A DNA stretch of 64,000 nucleotides from an uncultured bacterium (GTDB lineage Bacteria; Bacteroidota; Rhodothermia; Rhodothermales; DASSAV01): NCBI GenBank assembly GCA_966250015.1, contig CBINFS010000001.1, forward strand, positions 231,309-295,308. Direction: 5' to 3'. Positions 39,520-54,747 of the stretch are shown one piece after another. Within the stretch, counting starts at the first letter, position 1; the number at the start of each line of letters is the position of its first letter. The notes beneath the pieces are model-generated. The model was not told the origin of the DNA. It did not search any database and was given only the letters and a program-made list of their open reading frames with translations. The translations under genes and the position numbers were made by a program.

Positions 39520-41070
39520 TTATCTATCGTTTCCGACCAAAGCCAAAACTCCGTCCGCTACATTACGTTCCTCGCTTAAACGCGGTACTTTCGTCTGGCC
39601 GCTCAGTTTTCCGCGTGTATTCTTTATCCAGCGGTAGAATGTTCCCTCCGGGAGGACGACGATTTCGGGCATTTCAAACGCGCGAGCCTCCCGGCGGATC
39701 TGATAGTGCCGGTTAACCTTTTGGAGGTGATCGTCTACCGCCTGTGCAAACTGCTGGAGATCGGCCGGGGGGTTCTCAAACTCGATAAGCCACTGGTGAG
39801 CCGGCATACGGTCCGGCTCAAAAGCACGCGGCGCCACGTGGAAATTGAGGACCTGAGCCCCGGTAACCTCGCACGCGTGGAGGATGGCAGCCCTGGCCTC
39901 CTCGCTGAATACCGCCTCGCCGTATTTGTCGATCATTTCGCTCGTCCGGCCCGCTACGATGATTTTGTGCGGGGACGTGCTCGTAAACCGGATGACGTCG
40001 CGCACGGCATACGACCAGAGCCCGCTGCACGTCGTGACGTACATGGCGTACCGGACGTCCGGTTCGACGTCCCGGATCGTGTATCGCCTGGCGCCTTCAC
40101 GGTTCAATTCGTCCATCCGCACGAACTCGAAGAAGACGCCGTTGTCCAGGTGCAGGAGCAGCGAGGGGTCGTCGAGGTCGGACTGGAAGGCAAAAAATCC
40201 TTCCGACGCCCCGTACGTTTCGACGTAGTGAAGGTCCGGCTTTCCGATCAGGGAGTCCAGCAGTGATCGGTAAGAGCTCAGGGCAACCCCGCCCGACATG
40301 AATACCTGCAGGTTAGGCCACACCTCACCGACTGTGCTGACGTTCCGGTTGTTAAGCATGTTGTAGCGCTCGATGAGCAGCTTGAAAAACACCATCGCCC
40401 AGGAGGGCACCATGACGATCAACCGGATGTCCATGCCGATTGTCCGCTCGACGATGGCTTCAAGCTTGCGTTCCCAATGTGGCAGGAACGCAATTTCGTT
40501 GGGTACGGCCTGATAGAGGCCTTGGAAGAAGGAAGGCGCGTGCTCGGCCTGAAGGCCGCTGACCTCGCCGACCATAATCTCGCCGTACGACGTGTCCTTC
40601 TCGATTCTTCCGGGTAAGGTCAGGTGTTTTCCGAAGAGAAAGGACGGATTACCCGACGCTGCCAGATAGTTCAGCCCGACGCCGATGCTGAACGCATTGT
40701 TTTCGGCGAGCATGTCGGTACTCACTGGGATTAGCTTCCCGGACGAAGCAGTGCCGCTGGATACGGCGAAATGGGCGAATTTTCCCGGCCAGAAGACGTC
40801 CGCAGCGCCCCGGCGCACCCGGTCGATGTCCGTGCGGAAGTGTTCGTAATCGTGCAGCGGAACGCGCTCCTGATAGGCCGATATGACGTCCTCCTGTCGT
40901 GCAAGCTCTTCAAAACCGAATCGCCGCCCCCATTCCGTGCCCGCACTACGCCTGAGCAGACGGCGTAGCAATTCGGCCTGTGTGCGAACGGGATGGGTGA
41001 CAAACCGCCTTATTTTGCGGTAAGGGCCAAAAGGGGCGAGCCGAACGACCTGGCTCAGGAGTTCACACAT
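39520..41070 (-). CDS. GH3 family acyl-acid amido synthetase-like protein
   Basis: A 516-aa adenylate-forming fold with GH3-family motifs (SSGTASSGKLIPV...). Confidence 0.75.
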   Translation of the reverse strand: MCELLSQVVRLAPFGPYRKIRRFVTHPVRTQAELLRRLLRRSAGTEWGRRFGFEELARQEDVISAYQERVPLHDYEHFRTDIDRVRRGAADVFWPGKFAHFAVSSGTASSGKLIPVSTDMLAENNAFSIGVGLNYLAASGNPSFLFGKHLTLPGRIEKDTSYGEIMVGEVSGLQAEHAPSFFQGLYQAVPNEIAFLPHWERKLEAIVERTIGMDIRLIVMVPSWAMVFFKLLIERYNMLNNRNVSTVGEVWPNLQVFMSGGVALSSYRSLLDSLIGKPDLHYVETYGASEGFFAFQSDLDDPSLLLHLDNGVFFEFVRMDELNREGARRYTIRDVEPDVRYAMYVTTCSGLWSYAVRDVIRFTSTSPHKIIVAGRTSEMIDKYGEAVFSEEARAAILHACEVTGAQVLNFHVAPRAFEPDRMPAHQWLIEFENPPADLQQFAQAVDDHLQKVNRHYQIRREARAFEMPEIVVLPEGTFYRWIKNTRGKLSGQTKVPRLSEERNVADGVLALVGNDR

Positions 41071-42910: not shown

Positions 42911-43846
42911 ATGTTGCTGCCGCCTTCACACACGTCAGAAGCTTTCGACGGGGACCGGTTCGTCCTGGATTGCCGGGGAAAGCGGTTGGATTGCCGGCCC
43001 GGCATCCCGGAGGGCGCCCACGTCATGGGTATTTTGAACGTGACGCCCGATTCGTTTTCAGACGGCGGGCGGTACATCAGGGTGGACGACGCCCTCAGGC
43101 GCGCGGGGGAGATGGTGAAGGAAGGGGCCGCCATCATCGACGTAGGGGGCGAATCGACCCGGCCGCGTGGCGCGGTGTATGGCGAAGGCGCGGCTGCAGT
43201 ACCGGCCGAGGTGGAACGGAAAAGGGTCATACCGGTGATCGAAGGTATAAGGAGCCGTTTCCCGGAAGTTCTGGTTTCCATCGACACGTACAAGCCGGAG
43301 GTGGCGCGGGCGGCGCTCGATGCCGGCGCGCACATCGTAAATGACATCACCGGCCTGCGATTCGGACCCGAGATGGCAACGATCGCGGCCGAGTACGGGG
43401 CTCCGCTCGTCGTGATGCATTCGCTGGGCAAGCCGGGCGCGCTTCCGCACGCCACCGGCTATCGGGACGTGGTTCAAGAAGTGTACGACGCCCTGAAGAC
43501 GGCGGTAACGACGGCTGAGCAGGCGGGCGTGGCACACGTCGTTACGGATCCGGGCTTTGGCTTCGGAAAGTTGCCTGCGGAGAACCTGATGCTCTTGAAC
43601 CGGGTTGACCGATTCCTTTCATTAGGACGTCCGGTGCTCGTCGGGGTGTCCCGGAAGAGTACGATCGGCGTGGTGCTGGGCAGCACGGATTCGCCGGTTC
43701 CGCCGGAGGGTCGGCTTTTTGGTTCGCTCGGCGCGACGGCCGTGGCCGTCTTGAGGGGGGCAACGATCGTCCGCACCCACGACGTGCGCCCTACCGTTGA
43801 AATGCTTCGCGTTCTTGCGGCTACGGCAACACAAGGCCTTGCTTGA
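42911..43846 (+). CDS. folP: Dihydropteroate synthase
   Basis: GILNVTPDSFSDGG motif and a pterin-binding TIM barrel. The true start may be the internal Met at about 43025. Confidence 0.9.
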   Translation: MLLPPSHTSEAFDGDRFVLDCRGKRLDCRPGIPEGAHVMGILNVTPDSFSDGGRYIRVDDALRRAGEMVKEGAAIIDVGGESTRPRGAVYGEGAAAVPAEVERKRVIPVIEGIRSRFPEVLVSIDTYKPEVARAALDAGAHIVNDITGLRFGPEMATIAAEYGAPLVVMHSLGKPGALPHATGYRDVVQEVYDALKTAVTTAEQAGVAHVVTDPGFGFGKLPAENLMLLNRVDRFLSLGRPVLVGVSRKSTIGVVLGSTDSPVPPEGRLFGSLGATAVAVLRGATIVRTHDVRPTVEMLRVLAATATQGLA

Positions 43847-43891
43847 CGTCTACTTCTCGAATAGTGGTTCTTAATCTGACCTGATTCATCC

Positions 43892-44686
43892 TTGTATCTC
43901 TTCGACACCATCCCCGTTCGCATCGTCGATGTGCTCGAGATCGGCATCGTCGCATACATCCTGTATAAGCTCTATCAGCTTATGCGGGGTACGATTGCGG
44001 TGCAGATCTTTTTCGGGGTGATGGCGCTCTACCTGATGCAGGTCATCGTTACGGCGGCTGAAATGACGATGCTCAGGCGGCTCTTCCAGTCGGTGAGCGA
44101 AGTCTTCGTCATCGCCGTGATCATCCTCTTTCAGCCTGAGATTCGACGGCTTCTGCTTCTGCTTGGCCAGAATCCGCTCGTACGGCGCCTGGTGAACTCA
44201 CCGGCTCGCGAGGAACTGATCGCGGAAGTGGTGGCGGCCGTTGAGGAGATGAGCCGCAAGCACATCGGGGCGCTCATCGCCTTTGAACGCTCGACGGGTT
44301 TGAGGAGTTACATCGAGACAGGCGCCCTGCTGCAGGCTCAGGTGAGCCGGGACCTTCTGGTCACGATCTTTTTCGCTCAGAATCCACTCCACGACGGCGC
44401 GGCCATCATTCGAGATCGGCACATCGAGGCAGCCCGATGTATCTTACCAATCTCTACCAGCATGCGCCTCAGCCCCCATCTGGGTTTGCGGCACCGCGCA
44501 GCAGTTGGATTGACCGAGCAGACTGACGCCTTTGTGGTAGTCGTTTCCGAGGAAACGGGCAATATCTCGGTCTCGATGAATGGCGAGCTGATCTCGAATC
44601 TGTCGGTGAATGAATTCAGAAACCTGCTCGTCGATGCGTTAGAGGCGAATCCATCGGTCGAGACAGAGTTGAAGGCGGCCGAGTAG
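43892..44686 (+). CDS. cdaA: Diadenylate cyclase (c-di-AMP synthase, CdaA type)
   Basis: Three N-terminal TM helices and a DAC domain (GALIAFERSTGL, DGAAIIRD, RHRAAVGLTEQTDA). Confidence 0.9.
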   Translation: MYLFDTIPVRIVDVLEIGIVAYILYKLYQLMRGTIAVQIFFGVMALYLMQVIVTAAEMTMLRRLFQSVSEVFVIAVIILFQPEIRRLLLLLGQNPLVRRLVNSPAREELIAEVVAAVEEMSRKHIGALIAFERSTGLRSYIETGALLQAQVSRDLLVTIFFAQNPLHDGAAIIRDRHIEAARCILPISTSMRLSPHLGLRHRAAVGLTEQTDAFVVVVSEETGNISVSMNGELISNLSVNEFRNLLVDALEANPSVETELKAAE

Positions 44687-44734
44687 CGGAGACGCCCGCC
44701 GGAAATTACAGATTCGCCAAATCATTACGGCTTC

Positions 44735-45400
44735 ATGGAAGACAGGAAATACCAGCGTCCTCGGGCCAACCTGGTCGAGGAGCTCCGGCATAAGGGCATC
44801 ACGGACGAACGGGTGTTGAAGGCCATTGGTACGGTCCCGCGGCATCTGTTTGTCGAGCCCGCACTGCGCAGCAGGGCCTACGCCGACGAGGCGCTTCCAA
44901 TCGGCATGAAGCAGACGATCTCGCAGCCGTTTACGGTCGCTTATCAAACGATGCTGCTCAATCCCCAACCGGGTGAGCGGATTCTGGAAATCGGTACGGG
45001 AAGCGGTTATCAGGCGGCCATCCTGTGTGAGCTTGGCGCGCGCGTGTTTTCGGTCGAACGTCACGCTCCGTTGCTCGATCGGACCCGGCGTTTGCTGGAG
45101 ACACTCGGGTATCGGGTCGTCACGCGCCTGGGGGACGGCACGCTCGGATGGCCGTCTTTTGCGCCGTACGACGGCATCCTCGTGACCGCCGGCGCTACCA
45201 ACATTCCGCCCGCCTTGCTCGAACAGCTCAAAATCGGCGACCAAGAGCACCCGGGCGGGCGGCTCATCATCCCGATTGGCGACGAGCAGGGACAGGTAAT
45301 GAATCGCATCACGCGCATTGGACCGAACGACTACGAACGGGAAGAAACCAATACCTTTCGGTTCGTCCCTCTCGTCGGAGAAGGAGGCGGCGGCCAGTAA
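44735..45400 (+). CDS. pcm: Protein-L-isoaspartate O-methyltransferase
   Basis: SAM motif LEIGTGSGYQAA and a PIMT-family sequence. Confidence 0.9.
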   Translation: MEDRKYQRPRANLVEELRHKGITDERVLKAIGTVPRHLFVEPALRSRAYADEALPIGMKQTISQPFTVAYQTMLLNPQPGERILEIGTGSGYQAAILCELGARVFSVERHAPLLDRTRRLLETLGYRVVTRLGDGTLGWPSFAPYDGILVTAGATNIPPALLEQLKIGDQEHPGGRLIIPIGDEQGQVMNRITRIGPNDYEREETNTFRFVPLVGEGGGGQ

Positions 45401-45497: not shown

Positions 45498-47324
45498 TTG
45501 AGGCCTCTTACGAATGACGGAACAAATCCAATGCACTGGCACGCCGCCCTCTTTATGTTGCCCCTCATACCGGCAGGAGCGATCTGTATTGCGCTCGGTC
45601 TGTTATCCTGGCGGCGCCGTACCGTGGCGGGAGCTTCTGCCTTCTCGTTGCTCATGTTCACCGGGGCATTCTGGGCGCTCACCTATGCGTTGGAGCTGTC
45701 CACCGTCGGGAACGTGGTCCAGAGCCGGTTCTGGAATGGCCTGAAGCTTTCCTCCGCCGCCCTTCTATCGCCTTTTTTTGCCCTTTTCGTTCTCCGTTAC
45801 ACCCGTCAGGCGTGGCTTACGAAACGATTTGCGGCAGGGATACTGGCGCTTCCCCTGCTGGCGGGGTTGTGCCATGCTCTCGTAACCGTACAGGGCACGC
45901 TCATAGCCGGTGACGTCCAATTCAATGAGTTGGATACCCTGGAGGCAGGGTATTACACGCTTTGCAGGCTTGAGCGAGCCTATACCTTCTGCCTCACCCT
46001 TTTCGTTGAGGGAATACTGCTGCGAGAGGCCACGCAGGCTCCCCGTCTGTACAGGCAGCAGGCATTGGTCATGATCCTGGGAGGGGTGATACCGCTTGCC
46101 GGGCTGTTTGCGCCGTTCGTGCTCGAGCGAGAGGTGGGTGGCGCCCTTCCCCTCACGTTCATGCTCGCCGGCACCGGCGTCACCTGGGGGTTCATCCAGT
46201 ACCGGATGCTCGACATCATACCCGCCGCCCGCGACCTCGTCGTCGAGAGCATGAGCGACCTCGTGCTCATCCTGGACGTGCACAACCGGATTGTGGATAT
46301 GAATCCGGCAGCCGAACAGGGATTTGGGTTCTCTGCCGACGAAGTGGGAGGGAGACCACTGGAAACGGTATTTCGTGAGGCAACGAGCTTCCAGGCGGAC
46401 CCGCCGGAAGAGGTGGAAGCACAGGCAGAGATCATCCTTCGAGACGGTGAAGGACCGCGATACTTCGATTTTCGGATCTCCCCTCTCTACGGATGGCGAA
46501 ATCTGCTTGCCGGATGGCTGATCGTCCTGCGGGACGTCACGGAGCGGAAGCTCTACGAAGAAGAGCTGATCCTCGCAAAGGAACAGGCCGAAATCGCGGC
46601 GGACATGAAGTCGGCTCTGTTGAACAACGTCAGCCACGAGCTTCGCACGCCGCTTGCCAGCATCATCGGGTTTGCGCACGTCGTGGCCGAGGAAGTCCCG
46701 CCTGAGCAGAAGGAGTTCATCGAAATCATCGAACAGAATGGCCAGAGGCTGCTGAACACGCTGAACAACATACTCGATCTGGCCCAGCTCAAATCGCGAG
46801 GTCTGACGAGCCGTCCGGAGATATTCGACGCAGCGGCAGAGGTTCGGGAAACGGTGCGTTCGCTCGAGATCATGGCGCGTCTGAAAAACCTGCCCTTACT
46901 GGTATACACACCGGACGAGCGTGTCGAATGCAAGCTTGATCGGAATCATCTCTCCCGCACGCTCACCAACCTGCTCGGCAACGCAATCAAGTTTACGGAG
47001 ACCGGGCACGTATCCGTCCATCTGGACTACGACGACGACACGATCACACTGATCGTCAAAGATACGGGGATCGGGATCAGCGAGTCCTTCAAGCCATTCC
47101 TTTTCCAGGAGTTCAGGCAGGAGAGTACGGGTAATGACCGGTCGTACGGTGGAAACGGGTTGGGGCTCGCCATCACGAGGCATCTCGTCGGGATGATGGG
47201 AGGCACAATATCGGCTGAGAGCCGCCGGAACGCCGGCACCACGTTTACGGTCAGGATTCCGCGATACCCAGATCGTGCCGGAGCGGACAAGGACCTGCAG
47301 CTGGGTGAAGCACAATTCAGCTAA
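45498..47324 (+). CDS. Sensor histidine kinase with N-terminal 7TM sensor region, PAS, HisKA and HATPase domains
   Basis: About 7 TM helices, a PAS domain, the H-box (SHELRTPLASIIGF) and N/G boxes (GNAIKFT, DTGIGI, GGNGLGLAI). Confidence 0.85.
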   Translation: MRPLTNDGTNPMHWHAALFMLPLIPAGAICIALGLLSWRRRTVAGASAFSLLMFTGAFWALTYALELSTVGNVVQSRFWNGLKLSSAALLSPFFALFVLRYTRQAWLTKRFAAGILALPLLAGLCHALVTVQGTLIAGDVQFNELDTLEAGYYTLCRLERAYTFCLTLFVEGILLREATQAPRLYRQQALVMILGGVIPLAGLFAPFVLEREVGGALPLTFMLAGTGVTWGFIQYRMLDIIPAARDLVVESMSDLVLILDVHNRIVDMNPAAEQGFGFSADEVGGRPLETVFREATSFQADPPEEVEAQAEIILRDGEGPRYFDFRISPLYGWRNLLAGWLIVLRDVTERKLYEEELILAKEQAEIAADMKSALLNNVSHELRTPLASIIGFAHVVAEEVPPEQKEFIEIIEQNGQRLLNTLNNILDLAQLKSRGLTSRPEIFDAAAEVRETVRSLEIMARLKNLPLLVYTPDERVECKLDRNHLSRTLTNLLGNAIKFTETGHVSVHLDYDDDTITLIVKDTGIGISESFKPFLFQEFRQESTGNDRSYGGNGLGLAITRHLVGMMGGTISAESRRNAGTTFTVRIPRYPDRAGADKDLQLGEAQFS

Positions 47325-50254
47325 AACGGCACACTGGCCCGGATACGGTAGTAAACCTCGTATTCGTCTCCACTTCCAAAAGCGGACGCGGGTTGCGCCA
47401 CGCCCAGGGCATGGGCAAAGCCGATCACGCCCCCAAGTCTCAGCTCATTTTTGAGCTCAACGCCGACACCGACGCGACGTATGGCGTCGTCGAAGTTGGA
47501 GCCGCTCCAGACCATTCCGGCGTCGGAGAAGAGGGCCAGTGCCGTGCTGCCGAGCGACACGATACCCAGGAGGCGTGTTTGCAAGTCGGGAAGCAAAAGC
47601 ATGCGGTACTCTGCCGTTCCGAACAGCATGCGACTGCCGAGGGCATAGCGACGGAAGCCCCTCACGCGCTCGCTTTCGCCGAGCGTGAAGGGAATGTACT
47701 CGGGAATGTCGAGTTGAATGTCGTCGTGACGTGAAAGGCCAACGTAATCCTGCGCGAACGAATCGCCTTCCTGGATGCGGGCTCGTGCGTAGAGAAAGAG
47801 ACGATGCAAGCCGATACTCCGAATGATGCCGTAGGCAGCCAGATCACCCCGGACGAATCGGCTATCGCCGCCAAGCACGGGCAGGGCAGCTTCGAGCTGC
47901 AAGCGTGCGCCGAACCCGTCGAGCGGGTGGACCGTGTTGAAACGATACGGCCGCTGCTTCCGGTGCGTCAACGAGAGGCGCAAGTCGGCCTGCTGGCCTG
48001 CTTCGGGCGGCGGCAAGCCATCCAGCTCTTCGACGTCTTCGGCGCTGAGCGGGTCGATGTCGACGTATCGCGCTCTGAACCCGAGTCGGGTAGCCGTAAA
48101 CGGGCTTATGCCGACGTCGAGTGGCCACTCGAGGGTGACGTCTCCACCGAGGTAGTTTTCAACGAGCAGCTCGTTTCCATAAAAGCGCGAGGAGCCCGGC
48201 ATATGGTACAGGCTGATCCCGACGGTCGGGTGCCACTGGTTGTTGATGTACGTACCGGCGATCAGGCTCCGTTCCAGGGGTGACGCGAAGGAAAGCCCGC
48301 CGATGGTGGAGAAAATGTGTTTACCGAGCGGCTCGAACCACGTCGTCAGGCCGATGACGCCCCAGTCTTTCGGATTGTCGTAGTAGGGGACAGCGACGGA
48401 AACCGCGTGAGTGACGTTTTTCCACGACCGGTAGTCGTATCGAGCCGTTATGAGTGACGAGTCTTCGGGTATTTCCGCCGGTACTTCGTTCGGGGGCCTG
48501 TGCGTGATCCACGACTGGTAGGCTTTCGGAATGACAGGCGGAGGGTAGGATACCTTTCGTCGGGCGTCGATCCGGTAGGCCCTGTCGTTTTCTTTTGTCT
48601 CGTCGGATACGATCACGAGGCTGCCCGAGGTACGCAGGGAATCGGGCGGAAGCCAGTCGTACGCCGTAGCTCCGGTAGCAAGGTAGGTGACTCGCCGCGT
48701 CGCACCGGTCTCGAGGCTGTGGACGAACACGTTCGGCACCCGATCGCGAAACGACGTGAACGCAATCGACTGGCCGTCGGGGCTCCAGACGGGGAGCCGG
48801 TCGTCGTCACCCTTCTTGCCCGTCGAAAGCACACGCTGCTCGTGTGTTTTCAGGTCGTAAACGACCAGCGAACGCGTTCCGTCCTCGTCGAACAGCGCAT
48901 AGGCCAGCCGGCTGCCGTCGGGACTCCAGGCAACCAACGAGATCTGCACGTCACCGGTGTAGGCAGTCAGGGGCGACTCATTGCCTGTTTCAAGGTCGAG
49001 CAAAAAGAGGTTGGCCGTCCCTGCATCGGAGCCGATGAAGAGGAGCTGAAGGGAGGAGGAGTCGGGAGAAAAGACCGGTGAGGAGGCACGGCGGCCATAC
49101 GTCAGGCGGCGCAGGTTACGCCCGTCCGCGTCCACGACGAAGAGGTCGTTCAGCAATGATCCGTGTTCACTCCTTACGGTTCGCGCAAAAGCCAGCCGTT
49201 TCCCGTCCGGGCTCCACGAGACGGGCGCCTTGATCGACCCCTCCGCCACGATCCGGGTGGATTTACGATCCCGATCAACCACGTACAACCGACGGAAAGG
49301 CCGCTGGAGCGATACCAGCGACAGGACGGCGACGTGCGTCGTGTCGGGGCTGTATTTAATGTCGTACCGGTACTGCCCGGGAAGCTGGAGTGGAGCCGCA
49401 CGGAGCGAATCGGGCCGTTCCATCTGTCCGGCCAGCGTATTGTAGTAGACGTTTACGTGACGCCGCCAGTCGTCAAAAAAACGGCGATACGAGTTATCGG
49501 TTGTCTCCTCGAAGGCGCGGCCGAAGTCGTGCACCTCACCGAGACCGAAAAGCACTCTTTTCCGGTGTTTGAGGAGCTTCGAGAGGGTGGTGTCGCCGTA
49601 CTGATCGGCAAAGTACCGCAACTGGGAATTGCCGGAGGCATACAGGAGCCGTCCGTTCCAGACCGAGCGCCCGTCATTGTAGGAAAGCCGGTCGTCCAGC
49701 ACGGCGGTTCGTAGCCACCGCTCGCCCCGTTGCGCATCCCACACCTCGGTTTCGTACTGGGCGAGCCCTTCTGCCCAGAATCGTGGCATCGGATCGCCGA
49801 AAAGAAAAGATAAAAACCCGAGGTTGGACCGAACCGCGCGAAAGTGGAATAGATGGGTAAGCTCGTGGGCAATCACCTTGCGCAGCCATTTCTCCTCCCC
49901 CGTCCAGACTTCGGCCGCATCGTTGACGTGGACCCAGATATTCGTGTATCCCGTTCCGACGCCGACGGCGAAGCCGTTCGTAATCTCGTCCTCGTCCGAG
50001 AGGTAAATCCGGATTTTCCGGTCGAACGTGACGTCCAAGTTCGCCGACAGGACTTCGTACGCGGCTTCGGCGATGGGCGCGGCTTTGGTTTCGATCCCGC
50101 TGAGGTGCCGCGGGTACATGATCTCGAAGTGTTCGGTCTCCGCCACGAGCCACTTGAGCTCCGGATGGTTGCGCCCGTTATACGTGTTGAAACCCTGGCC
50201 ATGCAGGTCAAACGTCAACAGCAGACCGAAAAACAGGAGGGCAACAATTCGCAT
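47321..50254 (-). CDS. Outer-membrane multidomain protein: zincin HExxH peptidase-like domain + TolB-like beta-propeller + Omp85-type (Bac_surface_Ag) C-terminal barrel
   Basis: Signal peptide, HELTHLFH plus a downstream Glu (WAEGLAQYE), and PD40 repeats (SWSPDGKRLAF, FSPDSSSL, AWSPDGSRLAY, VWSPDGQSIAF). The C-terminal barrel carries the Omp85 loop-6 VRGF motif and a terminal ...SVPF. Confidence 0.7.
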   Translation of the reverse strand: MRIVALLFFGLLLTFDLHGQGFNTYNGRNHPELKWLVAETEHFEIMYPRHLSGIETKAAPIAEAAYEVLSANLDVTFDRKIRIYLSDEDEITNGFAVGVGTGYTNIWVHVNDAAEVWTGEEKWLRKVIAHELTHLFHFRAVRSNLGFLSFLFGDPMPRFWAEGLAQYETEVWDAQRGERWLRTAVLDDRLSYNDGRSVWNGRLLYASGNSQLRYFADQYGDTTLSKLLKHRKRVLFGLGEVHDFGRAFEETTDNSYRRFFDDWRRHVNVYYNTLAGQMERPDSLRAAPLQLPGQYRYDIKYSPDTTHVAVLSLVSLQRPFRRLYVVDRDRKSTRIVAEGSIKAPVSWSPDGKRLAFARTVRSEHGSLLNDLFVVDADGRNLRRLTYGRRASSPVFSPDSSSLQLLFIGSDAGTANLFLLDLETGNESPLTAYTGDVQISLVAWSPDGSRLAYALFDEDGTRSLVVYDLKTHEQRVLSTGKKGDDDRLPVWSPDGQSIAFTSFRDRVPNVFVHSLETGATRRVTYLATGATAYDWLPPDSLRTSGSLVIVSDETKENDRAYRIDARRKVSYPPPVIPKAYQSWITHRPPNEVPAEIPEDSSLITARYDYRSWKNVTHAVSVAVPYYDNPKDWGVIGLTTWFEPLGKHIFSTIGGLSFASPLERSLIAGTYINNQWHPTVGISLYHMPGSSRFYGNELLVENYLGGDVTLEWPLDVGISPFTATRLGFRARYVDIDPLSAEDVEELDGLPPPEAGQQADLRLSLTHRKQRPYRFNTVHPLDGFGARLQLEAALPVLGGDSRFVRGDLAAYGIIRSIGLHRLFLYARARIQEGDSFAQDYVGLSRHDDIQLDIPEYIPFTLGESERVRGFRRYALGSRMLFGTAEYRMLLLPDLQTRLLGIVSLGSTALALFSDAGMVWSGSNFDDAIRRVGVGVELKNELRLGGVIGFAHALGVAQPASAFGSGDEYEVYYRIRASVPF

Positions 50255-50501
50255 GGGGACGGAACGTCTCAAAACGATGCTGGAGAAACGTACGGTGTTG
50301 AATATACAGCCCAAAACCGCTACGCCACAGGGAGAAAGACTGCTATTTCGTCCTAGACAGTTACCGCCACCAGCCGAAAAAAGAGCCAGGCCTCCTACTT
50401 TTCCGACTGTTCCAATTTAGGGGAGCGAAACGCCGTTTGGATTGTTATGAGGAGTGTGGAGTCCGAATAGGGTCGTTATCCCTTCTGGAGGCGTTACGCA
50501 G

Positions 50502-52613: not shown

Positions 52614-53774
52614 TCAATACTTCATCAGCAGGTTCAGCAACCCGCGGTCGAGCTTGTGGCCGTACCAGTCTTCGTATTCGATGTCAGTTCTGCCGGAGTC
52701 GAGGATGCCGAAGTCGCCGCGGAAGTTCCAGAGGGCGTATCCGATCCCGTGCGACGTCAGGATGTCCAGGACGTCACCGAACCAGGCGAGGAACACTTCG
52801 TGTGGGGTTTCCCGCCAGCAGCCGCATTCTCCACAGTGAACGCCGACGCCCTGCTCGACCATCTCGATCCACGGCCGGTAAAACTCCTCGAGGTCTTCCC
52901 GGCTGAACTGGCGGCCGTCGATCTCGCCCGGCCAGACCGGAGTGGGCGCATCGTCCGGATTTTCGAAGACCCAGGGAGCGCGGTAGTGCGAGATGTAATG
53001 GGGGAAGTACCCGCGGCAGCTCTGCCCGATGTCGAGGTCTGCGATTTCCGGGATGGGAACCGCGCCGACGTCGTTCCCGTCGGCGATGACGAGGTGATTG
53101 GGGTTGTGCGAGCGGATGGTTTCCAGTGCCGCTTGTGCAACCTTCCGGTAGACCTCGCCGGGGACAGGGCTACGCCGGGAGAACTGGTCGTTCATGTCCT
53201 CGCGGGCGCTGGGTTCGTTGACGAGGTCGAAGCTGATCTTGTCAGGTGAGACGTCTTTGAATCGCTCGGCCCACATGGACCAGTGGAAAAGGAAAGCTTT
53301 CTGGGCCTCTTCGTCTTCCCACAGGTTGTAGGGCTCGTTGAAACCGGCGTTGACGCAGTAACCCGGCGCCCGGTGAAGATTCAGGCTCACGTGGATGCCG
53401 TACTTGTGCGCCTTTGCCACCAGGTCCTCGATGTACTCGACCTGCTCCTCGTCGATGTTGTACACCTCTTCAGGCGTGATATTCCGGGAGCGGTCGAACT
53501 TGACGTAGCGTGGGTAGGCCATCGGGATTCTCACGAAGTCGAATCCCCAGTCGGCCATCCATTTAAGGTCCTCCTCTGTCGTTTGGGCGCGTCCGTTACC
53601 CGGGTTGGGCGAGAAAAAATCCAGGAGGTTAAACCCACGCCAACGCGGGAGCTTGTTCCGGACGGGTTCTCCGGAAGTCCCGGCACAACCGAGGTTACTC
53701 GCCAGGTAAACGCCTGCCGCCGAGGCTGCTGTGGTTTTCAGAAAAGCTCTGCGGTTGAGGGAACGGATCGACAT
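52614..53774 (-). CDS. Glycoside hydrolase family 5 enzyme with Tat signal
   Basis: Twin-arginine signal (NRRAFLK) and the GH5 catalytic NEP motif (FDLVNEP). Confidence 0.8.
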   Translation of the reverse strand: MSIRSLNRRAFLKTTAASAAGVYLASNLGCAGTSGEPVRNKLPRWRGFNLLDFFSPNPGNGRAQTTEEDLKWMADWGFDFVRIPMAYPRYVKFDRSRNITPEEVYNIDEEQVEYIEDLVAKAHKYGIHVSLNLHRAPGYCVNAGFNEPYNLWEDEEAQKAFLFHWSMWAERFKDVSPDKISFDLVNEPSAREDMNDQFSRRSPVPGEVYRKVAQAALETIRSHNPNHLVIADGNDVGAVPIPEIADLDIGQSCRGYFPHYISHYRAPWVFENPDDAPTPVWPGEIDGRQFSREDLEEFYRPWIEMVEQGVGVHCGECGCWRETPHEVFLAWFGDVLDILTSHGIGYALWNFRGDFGILDSGRTDIEYEDWYGHKLDRGLLNLLMKY

Positions 53775-53868: not shown

Positions 53869-54747
53869 TCACGAGGCGACGTGGCGGATCTCCACCTGGC
53901 CTTTCCGTATGCGCGTTTGATAGGCCGGCTGTGGGTGCGTGGCGGGGCCGTGTACGACCGAACCGTCGCGGAGGTCGAAGACCGAATCGTGCCAGGGGCA
54001 CTGCACCGTGAAGTCGTGGAACTCCCCTTCTTCGAGCGGACCTCCGGAGTGGCTGCACACCGCGTTGATCGCGTGGACTGTGCCCTCGCAGCGGTAAAGG
54101 AGCACCTTCGATCCTTCGACGTCTACCGCCTTCGGTTCTCCTTCGGGAAGCTCTGCTTCGGGAAGGACGGCCGTCCACTTCTCCGGTCCCGAGATCTCCT
54201 CGCTGTGATCGACGCCTACCCTGTGGGTGTAGACGAGGTGCCCGCCGAGCCAGGCCGAGGCGGCAAGCAGGGCGAGCGCCAGCGAGGAGAAAAATACGCC
54301 GCGCGCTCGCTTTCCATTCTTCCGGTCGCGCAACGAGAGCAGGTAGAGCCCGAGGTTGACGCTGTTCAGCAGCGCGTGCATCGATGCGCTGCTCATGGCG
54401 GGCTTTTCAACAGTCGAGAAGTCGGCGAGCCCGCTGATGGCCGTCGCGACGGCGGATATGCTGCCTGCCGATACGAGCGTGTCGGCGGCCTTTTCCGCAA
54501 ACCGTGCTCCCCGGGCGGCCGCGAGGACGTCGAAGAGGGTGGCCAGCGTAAAGGCGCCCACGGTGACGTCGGTCAGCATCGGATGGAGTGGGTGGCCGAG
54601 CCACGTACCGTGGAGCAGGTCGGCTATTTTCCGGGCCGGGTATCCACCCTTCAGCACCGCGGCATGAATGGATCGGGACAGCTTCAGCCCGTTTTCGGAT
54701 AAGCCCGGCAGTTGCTCCGTTTTCTGAACGAGAAGGTCTCCCAGCAT
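53869..54747 (-). CDS. Membrane domain (DUF2231-like) fused to Rieske [2Fe-2S] domain
   Basis: Rieske boxes CSHSGGPLEEG and CPWHDSVFDL, with an N-terminal 4-TM region. Confidence 0.75.
   Translation of the reverse strand: MLGDLLVQKTEQLPGLSENGLKLSRSIHAAVLKGGYPARKIADLLHGTWLGHPLHPMLTDVTVGAFTLATLFDVLAAARGARFAEKAADTLVSAGSISAVATAISGLADFSTVEKPAMSSASMHALLNSVNLGLYLLSLRDRKNGKRARGVFFSSLALALLAASAWLGGHLVYTHRVGVDHSEEISGPEKWTAVLPEAELPEGEPKAVDVEGSKVLLYRCEGTVHAINAVCSHSGGPLEEGEFHDFTVQCPWHDSVFDLRDGSVVHGPATHPQPAYQTRIRKGQVEIRHVAS

What the first reader, a model, noticed from the sequence alone, without database searches (positions are those of the whole stretch)
47321..50254. Omp85-type barrel fused to a TolB-like propeller and an HExxH metallopeptidase domain
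A single ~980-aa secreted protein combines three parts. The N-terminal domain has HELTHLFH plus a downstream Glu, consistent with a gluzincin-like active site. The middle has at least four PD40/TolB beta-propeller repeats. The C-terminal region carries Omp85-family hallmarks: a VRGF loop-6 motif and a terminal aromatic (...SVPF). Omp85 proteins normally carry POTRA domains at the N-terminus. Replacing those with a protease and a propeller suggests a surface-anchored or self-exporting protease, or a novel Omp85-family protein that docks a periplasmic peptide-capture module.
Basis: partly seen in the sequence, partly recalled or inferred. Interest (0 to 1): 0.6.

Follow-up and report, generated by a model that had tools for sequence, protein, structure and literature searches.

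The report
Omp85 barrel with propeller and zinc peptidase
This gene encodes a real outer-membrane protein that joins a zinc-protease domain and a TolB-like propeller to a BamA-type barrel, but the design was catalogued in 2014 as the "WD40-like" Omp85 subfamily, so it is a new member of a known family whose function has never been tested.

Summary
Window 47321..50254 (-) encodes a 977-aa exported protein with three parts:

There is no POTRA domain.

Across 90 relatives only 18-45% identical to the query, just seven columns are invariant. Five are the zinc-site residues H130, E131, H134, E162 and G163. The other two are barrel residues: R865 of the loop-6 VRG motif, and G931.

The claim of novelty does not hold. 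Heinz & Lithgow (2014) defined this "WD40-like" Omp85 subfamily. Their Table S3 records TolB, BamA/TamA and aminopeptidase/collagenase fold matches for about 100 members. Papers from 2024 and 2025 mention the same architecture again. I found no functional study.

No gene neighbour is conserved (at most 8 of 80 loci).

The most likely mechanism is an outer-membrane-tethered zinc peptidase facing the periplasm, with the propeller selecting unfolded substrates. A self-exported surface protease is not excluded.

The parts
47321..50254 (-). Whole gene: 977 codons plus a TAG stop. Peptidase-propeller-Omp85 outer-membrane protein.
   Evidence: ORF list. 99%-identical 977-aa homolog P0001 and more than 3000 relatives. 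AF2 model with pLDDT 88.6 and pTM 0.87.
50195..50254 (-). Sec signal peptide (aa 1-~20, MRIVALLFFGLLLTFDLHG|QG). No lipobox Cys; the protein has no Cys at all.
   Evidence: Read directly from the sequence. Low pLDDT for residues 9-26. The homolog consensus ends AxA-QGF. Cys count is 0. The cleavage site is inferred, not predicted with a tool.
49385..50176 (-). Gluzincin (clan MA(E)) zinc-peptidase catalytic domain, aa 27-290.
49853..49867 (-). HELTH (H130, E131, H134): two zinc ligands and the catalytic base.
   Evidence: Translation. Invariant in 111 of 111 representatives and in alignments A2 and A3.
49766..49777 (-). WAEG: E162 is the third zinc ligand and G163 follows it. E162 lies 27 residues after H134.
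   Evidence: Translation. E162 and G163 are invariant in 111 of 111. Aligns to WLNEG of M1 aminopeptidase A. Spacing across the family is 24-30 residues, mode 27.
49640..49642 (-). Y205, a candidate transition-state-stabilising residue.
   Evidence: Y in 92 and H in 19 of 111. Aligns with the Tyr of the 'SYSKG' segment of M1 aminopeptidases in the profile alignment. Its catalytic role is inferred from what is known of M1.
48566..49372 (-). Six-bladed PD40 / TolB-type beta-propeller, aa 295-563.
48413..48565 (-). Linker, aa 564-614, with a short helix (577-584) carrying the near-invariant W582. Too short to be a POTRA domain.
   Evidence: DSSP of the model. W582 in 109 of 111. No POTRA family hit at E<=10.
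47324..48412 (-). 16-strand Omp85 (BamA/TamA-type) barrel, aa 615-977.
47654..47665 (-). Loop-6 VRGF motif (aa 864-867).
   Evidence: Translation. R865 in 111 of 111, G866 in 108 of 111, position 864 is V, L or I.
47516..47530 (-). FSDAG on strand 13 (aa 909-913), an (F/G)xDxG-type motif. In BamA this is the partner of loop 6.
   Evidence: Translation. F909 in 90, D911 in 103 (plus 7 E), position 913 is G or A in 97 of 111. The pairing with loop 6 is taken from what is known of BamA and was not tested here.
47324..47353 (-). C-terminal beta-signal, YYRIRASVPF. It has a terminal Phe and alternating hydrophobic residues.
   Evidence: Translation. The terminal residue is F in 67 of 111 representatives.

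Best explanation
The gene encodes a member of the 'WD40-like' (peptidase-propeller) subfamily of Omp85 outer-membrane proteins.

After Sec export and signal-peptide removal, the C-terminal 16-strand BamA/TamA-type barrel is inserted into the outer membrane. It carries a normal C-terminal beta-signal, so insertion is presumably by the cell's own BAM.

Loop 6 lies between strands 11 and 12, as in BamA. Strand 1 therefore begins on the periplasmic face. The ~50-aa linker, the six-bladed TolB-type propeller and the ~260-aa gluzincin domain then hang into the periplasm in place of POTRA domains.

The gluzincin domain has a complete catalytic set: H130 and H134 plus E162 as zinc ligands, E131 as the base, and Y205 as the likely transition-state residue. 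It is therefore most likely an active zinc endo- or oligopeptidase.

The most likely mode of action is an outer-membrane-tethered periplasmic peptidase. The variable propeller selects or gates unfolded polypeptides, as propellers do in S9 and tricorn peptidases. The Omp85 barrel acts as the anchor and possibly as the receptor for unassembled beta-barrel proteins. Functionally this resembles BAM-associated BepA.

Shown here: the identity of the three domains, the absence of POTRA, conservation of the architecture, and conservation of the catalytic and loop-6 residues.

Inferred: periplasmic orientation, catalytic activity, the role of the propeller, and the substrates.
For: - Domains.
- Catalytic residues H130, E131, H134, E162 and G163 are invariant in 111 of 111 cluster representatives. 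Together with R865 and G931 they are the only invariant columns in alignments of 90 and 52 relatives at 18-45% identity to the query.
- Y205 is Y or H in all 111 and aligns with the Tyr of the SYSKG segment of M1 aminopeptidases.
- The architecture is fixed. The N-domain search returns almost only 900-1000-aa proteins with the domain at the N-terminus.
- Barrel topology: 16 strands, with VRGF in the strand 11-12 loop and FxDxG on strand 13.
- pTM of 0.87 for the whole chain suggests a defined arrangement of the domains.
- The propeller is the least conserved part (1 of 269 columns >=80% conserved) and the peptidase the most (28 of 264).
- The literature places N-terminal extensions of Omp85 proteins in the periplasm and lists this subfamily as uncharacterised (PMC4104836, PMC11358297).
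Against: - No experiment exists for any member. I found only catalogue-level mentions.
- Orientation is inferred from strand parity and analogy. I could not inspect the model coordinates or PAE, so I do not know whether the active site faces the propeller channel or the barrel.
- PlpD shows that an Omp85-type barrel can export an N-terminal enzyme domain.
- There is no conserved neighbour (BAM, chaperone or regulator) to support an outer-membrane-protein quality-control role.
- The per-domain conservation comparison is biased, because the distant set was recruited with the N-domain as query.
Confidence: 0.55

Rival explanations
1. Type Vd-like self-export. The Omp85 barrel translocates its own N-terminal peptidase-propeller passenger to the cell surface, as PlpD does with its patatin domain. 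There it acts as a surface-anchored or released nutritional protease.
For: - PlpD is an Omp85-type (not TpsB-type) barrel with an N-terminal enzyme. Heinz & Lithgow raise the same alternative for enzyme-carrying Omp85 proteins.
- The catalytic site is strictly conserved.
- The closest structural match of the peptidase domain is a secreted endopeptidase, M30 lugdulysin, and M9 collagenases also score high.
Against: - There is no POTRA domain between passenger and barrel, whereas the patatin-like subfamily carries PF07244 (Table S2).
- The passenger would be about 540 residues, including a closed six-bladed propeller.
- TolB-type propellers are periplasmic modules.
- The whole-chain pTM of 0.87 implies a docked arrangement rather than a flexible one.
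- Strand parity places the N-terminus in the periplasm.
- No autoprocessing site is evident.
Confidence: 0.15
2. An assembly or insertase factor. The barrel works like BamA or TamA, and the propeller acts as a built-in BamB-like scaffold for partner or substrate binding, as Heinz & Lithgow 2014 suggested. The peptidase domain would serve as a chaperone-like or processing accessory rather than a degradative enzyme.
For: - The loop-6 VRG Arg and the strand-13 FxDxG-type Asp, which are functional hallmarks of BamA, are conserved to the same degree as the zinc site.
- Strand 16 is short (7 residues) in the model, as at the BamA seam.
- The barrel's best structural matches are BamA proteins.
- The published hypothesis is in PMC4104836.
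Against: - The propeller is six-bladed and TolB-type, not the eight-bladed BamB type.
- It is the least conserved domain.
- This reading does not explain why the full catalytic set of a peptidase is invariant across the family.
- No POTRA domain is present to hand over substrates.
- No conserved TamB-like or BAM-lipoprotein neighbour is present.
Confidence: 0.15
3. An envelope tether or structural protein. This would be a barrel-anchored TolB relative that binds a Pal/OmpA-like partner or peptidoglycan, with the zinc domain acting on peptidoglycan peptides or being non-catalytic. [quoted passage not shown]
For: - The propeller is homologous to that of TolB.
- The 2025 MBE paper proposes that OMP-TolB-like proteins are related to the ancestor of TolB and speculates about peptidoglycan remodelling.
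Against: - The TolB N-terminal domain is absent. The alignments start at TolB residue ~140.
- The TolB equivalog model scores 107 bits against a cutoff of 343.
- No propeller residue is conserved across the family.
- No tol-pal genes are adjacent.
- The gluzincin fold matches peptide-bond hydrolases that act on proteins and peptides.
Confidence: 0.08

Closest known systems
WD40-like / WD40-Omp85 subfamily of the Omp85/TpsB superfamily (Heinz & Lithgow 2014, Front Microbiol 5:370, PMC4104836)
   Different: Nothing essential differs. The window protein is at most 62% identical to any species-representative genome. The paper's main text discusses only the propeller, as a 'BamA-BamB fusion', and never the peptidase. 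The invariance of the zinc site shown here is not in that paper.
BamA / TamA (canonical Omp85 insertases)
   Different: No POTRA domains. The BamA equivalog model TIGR03303 scores 26.6 bits against a cutoff of 297. The periplasmic part is an enzyme plus a propeller.
PlpD / type Vd secretion (patatin-like Omp85)
   Same: An Omp85-type barrel with an N-terminal hydrolase domain in a single polypeptide.
   Different: PlpD has a POTRA domain between passenger and barrel and a patatin lipase passenger. Here there is no POTRA, the enzyme is a zinc peptidase and a propeller is present. Export of the passenger has not been shown for this family.
TolB (Tol-Pal system)
   Different: It lacks the TolB N-terminal domain, is fused to a barrel and a peptidase, has no tol-pal context and scores below the equivalog cutoff.
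Gluzincin peptidases: Pfam Peptidase_MA_2 (PF13485), M1 aminopeptidase catalytic domain, M30 lugdulysin, M9 collagenase
   Same: Thermolysin-like fold, HExxH plus a downstream Glu on the next helix, and a Tyr aligned with the M1 Tyr.
   Different: - The HExxH-to-Glu spacing is 27 residues (family range 24-30), not the 18 of M1.
- There is no GxMEN exopeptidase motif. The family has (S/T)DxD(D/E)IxNG(F/Y)A instead.
- The M1 N-terminal and C-terminal domains are absent.
- The query is below the PF13485 cutoff (15.5 vs 32.4 bits).
BepA/YfgC (BAM-associated M48 zinc protease with a TPR domain) and propeller-gated peptidases (S9 prolyl oligopeptidase/DPP-IV, tricorn)
   Same: These are functional analogies only. 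BepA is a zinc protease positioned at the outer-membrane assembly site. S9 and tricorn are peptidases whose access is filtered by a PD40-type propeller. S9 propellers are sequence- and fold-related to this one.

Membership tests
Omp85 superfamily (Pfam PF01103) | Sequence match to the Omp85 barrel model above its gathering score | tested here: met
   42.1 bits for the full protein and 44.6 bits for the C-terminal part, against a cutoff of 24.
Omp85 superfamily (Pfam PF01103) | 16-strand barrel with a long loop 6 between strands 11 and 12 carrying (V/I)RG(F/Y) | tested here: met
Omp85 superfamily (Pfam PF01103) | N-terminal POTRA domain(s) | tested here: not met
   No PF07244 or other POTRA hit at E<=10. 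Only a ~50-aa linker precedes strand 1. POTRA is not required for the non-POTRA subfamilies defined in PMC4104836.
WD40-like Omp85 subfamily (Heinz & Lithgow 2014) | An Omp85 barrel plus N-terminal PD40/WD40-like propeller repeats, with no POTRA | tested here: met
   PF01103 plus PF07676, matching the Table S2 architectures. TolB is the best structural match for the propeller, as in their Table S3.
WD40-like Omp85 subfamily (Heinz & Lithgow 2014) | An aminopeptidase- or collagenase-like (gluzincin) domain at the extreme N-terminus (Table S3 column 'best aminopeptidase hit') | tested here: met
WD40-like Omp85 subfamily (Heinz & Lithgow 2014) | Direct sequence clustering with the listed UniProt members (for example D0MEQ5, Q2S5S8) | not testable with these tools
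   UniProt sequences could not be fetched. Indirect support: homologs at 49-57% identity in Salinibacter, Salinivenus and Rhodothermaceae genomes.
BamA (TIGR03303 equivalog) | Score above the equivalog cutoff, with five POTRA domains | tested here: not met
   26.6 bits against a cutoff of 297.15, covering the barrel only.
TolB (TIGR02800 equivalog) | Score above the equivalog cutoff, with the TolB N-terminal domain and a tol-pal context | tested here: not met
   106.8 bits against a cutoff of 343. Only the propeller aligns, from TolB residue ~140. The neighbours are a histidine kinase and a P-type ATPase.
Gluzincins, clan MA(E) | HExxH plus a Glu zinc ligand on a following helix, in a thermolysin-like fold | tested here: met
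Peptidase family M1 | HEXXH-X18-E spacing and a GXMEN exopeptidase motif | tested here: not met
   The spacing is 27 residues (family range 24-30). The upstream strand reads DEITNGFA, with no Glu before the Asn.
Peptidase family M48 (BepA/HtpX-like) | Pfam PF01435 above cutoff and an M48 fold | tested here: not met
Pfam Peptidase_MA_2 (PF13485) | Score above the gathering threshold | tested here: inconclusive
   The query scores 15.5 bits against a cutoff of 32.4. However, 30 of 52 distant full-length relatives match at E<=1e-3 (best 1.9e-12), and the domain is precomputed on P0097, P0101 and P0114.
Type Vd secretion (PlpD-like) | Passenger-POTRA-Omp85 barrel layout, with the passenger exposed or released at the surface | tested here: not met
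   There is no POTRA. Surface exposure cannot be tested with these tools.

The most novel reading that the evidence does not exclude
The protein is a self-contained outer-membrane-protein quality-control machine. The Omp85 barrel, whose loop-6/strand-13 lock is as strictly conserved as the zinc site, would capture the beta-signal of unassembled or stalled barrel proteins at its seam. The tethered propeller-gated gluzincin would then degrade them. That would be a one-polypeptide equivalent of BamA plus BepA, and the first Omp85 protein with a degradative rather than an assembly or translocation role.
Probability: 0.2. Interest if true: 0.7.

Novelty: new member of a known kind. Interest (0 to 1): 0.3.

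Why it matters
The family is large. The peptidase domain alone matches 1888 clusters at 50% identity. It is spread over Rhodothermales, Balneolales, Salinibacter, KSB1 and, according to the literature, many other phyla. The published list suggests several paralogs per genome.

No member has been studied experimentally. The only published functional idea, a BamA-BamB-like platform, ignores the peptidase.

The one new point from this analysis is that the zinc site and the loop-6 arginine are among the only seven invariant positions across very divergent members. This argues that both the enzyme and the Omp85 mechanism are functional and probably coupled. If so, the family would add a proteolytic role to the Omp85 superfamily, and it can be tested directly in cultured Rhodothermus or Salinibacter.

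As a genome-scan finding, however, it is an instance of an already catalogued architecture and not a discovery.

Tried and rejected
- M1 aminopeptidase membership. Rejected on the HExxH-Glu spacing and the missing GxMEN motif.
- Operon or partner search. The window's neighbours recur in at most 4 of 80 related loci. De novo clustering of flanking ORFs found no family in more than 8 of 80 loci apart from ORFs overlapping the gene itself. No paralog is present in the window.
- The search for related loci with the divergent alignment A3 failed because no stretch was conserved enough. A1 was used instead.
- The listing of cluster members on 10 distant representatives gave no organism names. The profile search added only KSB1, Bacteroidetes and Balneolaceae names, so the phylum-level spread rests mainly on the literature.
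- Promoter and terminator scans were at background level.
- Literature searches for functional work under several term sets found only catalogue-level mentions.
- I could not reach the model coordinates or PAE, so the orientation of the active site relative to the propeller and barrel was not determined.

Full report
**1. What is there**

The minus strand carries an ORF at 47321..50314. Homologs, including a 99%-identical 977-aa protein from public assemblies (P0001), start at the ATG at 50254. That start gives MRIVALLFFGLLLTFDLHG|QGF, a typical Sec signal with no lipobox. The protein contains no Cys. Its TAG stop overlaps the TAA of a convergent histidine-kinase gene within the sequence CTAA.

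**2. Domain identities**

Pfam places PD40 (73.1 bits), DPPIV_N (44.4) and Omp85 PF01103 (42.1 against a cutoff of 24) above threshold. The HExxH region gives only sub-threshold M48 and Peptidase_MA_2 hits. NCBIfam shows partial, sub-cutoff matches to TolB (106.8 vs 343) and BamA (26.6 vs 297), so the protein is neither of these.

An AF2 model built on 55 homologs is confident, with pLDDT 88.6 and pTM 0.87. It shows:
- a mixed alpha/beta N-domain (27-290)
- about 24 strands forming six blades (295-563)
- a ~50-aa linker with one short helix
- 16 long strands (615-972)

A profile of the N-domain aligns to M1 aminopeptidase A weakly (E 0.013) but in register. HExxH aligns to HELVH, WFxEG to WLNEG, and LLY205AxG to SYSKG.

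The domain is not M1. The spacing from HExxH to the Glu is 27 residues (family range 24-30) against 18 in M1. The upstream strand carries (S/T)DxD(D/E)IxNG(F/Y)A rather than GxMEN.

**3. Barrel hallmarks**

The long loop 832-874 lies between strands 11 and 12 and carries VRGF (864-867). Strand 13 carries FSDAG, an FxDxG-type motif. The C-terminus, YYRIRASVPF, is a standard beta-signal. No POTRA or TpsB/ShlB family is detected even at E<=10.

With 16 strands and loop 6 in the canonical position, the N-terminus of strand 1 lies on the face opposite loop 6. In every solved Omp85 protein, that face is the periplasm. This step is an inference.

**4. Family and conservation**

The full protein has more than 3000 homologs. 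The best 120 are all 930-1050 aa long and 51-71% identical.

The N-domain alone finds 1888 cluster representatives at E<=1e-3. Nearly every complete hit is 900-1000 aa long with the domain at the N-terminus, so the three-part layout is fixed.

In 111 full-length representatives, H130, E131, H134, E162, G163 and R865 are present in 111 of 111. G866 is present in 108, D911 in 103, and Y205 is Y (92) or H (19).

In alignments of 90 and 52 members only 18-45% identical to the query, the only invariant columns are H130, E131, H134, E162, G163, R865 and G931. Peptidase_MA_2 is detected in 30 of the 52.

By domain, the peptidase is the most conserved (28 of 264 columns >=80%) and the propeller the least (1 of 269). 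This set was recruited through the N-domain, which biases the comparison.

W582 in the linker helix is conserved in 109 of 111 and remains unexplained.

**5. Context and distribution**

The gene is monocistronic. It is convergent with a 7TM-PAS histidine kinase and divergent from a heavy-metal P-type ATPase. There is no paralog in the window.

In 80 related loci, from Rhodothermales, Salinibacter/Salinivenus, Rubricoccaceae, Roseithermus and Balneolales, no neighbour recurs in more than 8 loci. A KSB1 member at 36% identity was also named. The closest species-representative genome is 62% identical.

**6. What is already known**

Heinz & Lithgow (2014, PMC4104836) divided the Omp85/TpsB superfamily into ten subfamilies, one of them 'WD40-like/WD40-Omp85'.
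- The main text describes the TolB-like propeller and likens the protein to a BamA-BamB fusion.
- Table S2 lists PF01103 plus PF07676 architectures.
- Table S3 gives, for about 100 members, best Phyre2 hits to BamA or TamA, to TolB, and, in a column headed 'best aminopeptidase hit', to 1z5h, 4kxd, 3qnf, 4fgm, 4ar1 and 4ar9 at 98.7-99.6.
- The word 'aminopeptidase' never appears in the main text.

A 2024 paper summarises the subfamily as having 'divergent WD40 and peptidase domains' (PMC11358297). A 2025 paper describes widespread 'OMP-TolB-like' proteins and proposes that TolB arose from them by loss of the barrel (PMC12204202).

I found no functional or structural study. No solved structure matches the barrel or the peptidase part by sequence.

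**7. Mechanism**

Best-supported reading (about 0.55): an outer-membrane-anchored, periplasm-facing, catalytically competent zinc endo- or oligopeptidase. The variable propeller would select or gate unfolded substrates. The Omp85 barrel would be the anchor and possibly the substrate receptor.

Rivals:
- PlpD-like self-export to the surface (0.15). The missing POTRA, the strand parity and the docked model argue against it.
- A BamA/BamB-like assembly platform (0.15). It does not explain the invariant peptidase site.
- A TolB-like tether (0.08). It lacks the TolB N-domain, has no conserved propeller residues and has no tol-pal context.

The most novel reading not excluded is a one-polypeptide BamA-plus-BepA-like degradation machine for outer-membrane proteins (about 0.2).

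**8. Verdict**

This is a new member of a known but experimentally uncharacterised subfamily. Interest is modest. The useful addition here is that the zinc site and the loop-6 arginine, with G163 and G931, are the only invariant positions across the family. That makes a coupled proteolytic Omp85 function a concrete and testable hypothesis.

Noticed in passing
window 47321-47324: The stop codons of the Omp85-peptidase gene (TAG, minus strand) and the convergent 7TM-PAS histidine kinase gene (TAA, plus strand) overlap within the four bases CTAA. There is no intergenic space and no terminator-like site between them.
   Followed up: partly
window 48488-48511 (aa 577-584 of the protein): W582, in the short helix of the propeller-barrel linker, is conserved in 109 of 111 divergent family members. 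It sits within a YxxWxxxxP pattern. Its role (plug, membrane-interface anchor or domain contact) is unknown.
   Followed up: partly
window 52614-53774 (-): A GH5 cellulase-family protein with a twin-arginine-like signal (MSIRSLNRRAFLKTTAASAAG).
   Followed up: no
window 53869-54747 (-): A fusion of a DUF2231 membrane domain with a C-terminal Rieske [2Fe-2S] domain.
   Followed up: no
window 42911-45400 (+): A folP (pterin-binding) - cdaA (diadenylate cyclase with CdaA_N) - pcm (isoaspartyl methyltransferase) gene run. It is kept next to the Omp85-peptidase gene in only 3-4 of 80 related loci.
   Followed up: partly
window 39520-41070 (-): A bacterial protein with all three GH3-family (plant auxin-amido-synthetase-like) domains: PF03321, PF23571 and PF23572.
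   Followed up: no
window 45498-47324 (+): A histidine kinase with an N-terminal HisKA_7TM seven-transmembrane sensor region and a PAS domain. No response regulator was seen among the ORFs I examined next to it.
   Followed up: no
homologs P0001-P0120: All homologs carry the precomputed Pfam accessions PF26549 and PF26550. These are not in the local Pfam copy, so their names and the regions they cover could not be checked.
   Followed up: no
models me5bb5fa14df8 and mf82225a5236b: The peptidase domain is predicted less confidently on its own (pLDDT 78.6) than as part of the full-length model (about 89 for the same residues). This hints that contacts with the propeller help to define it.
   Followed up: no
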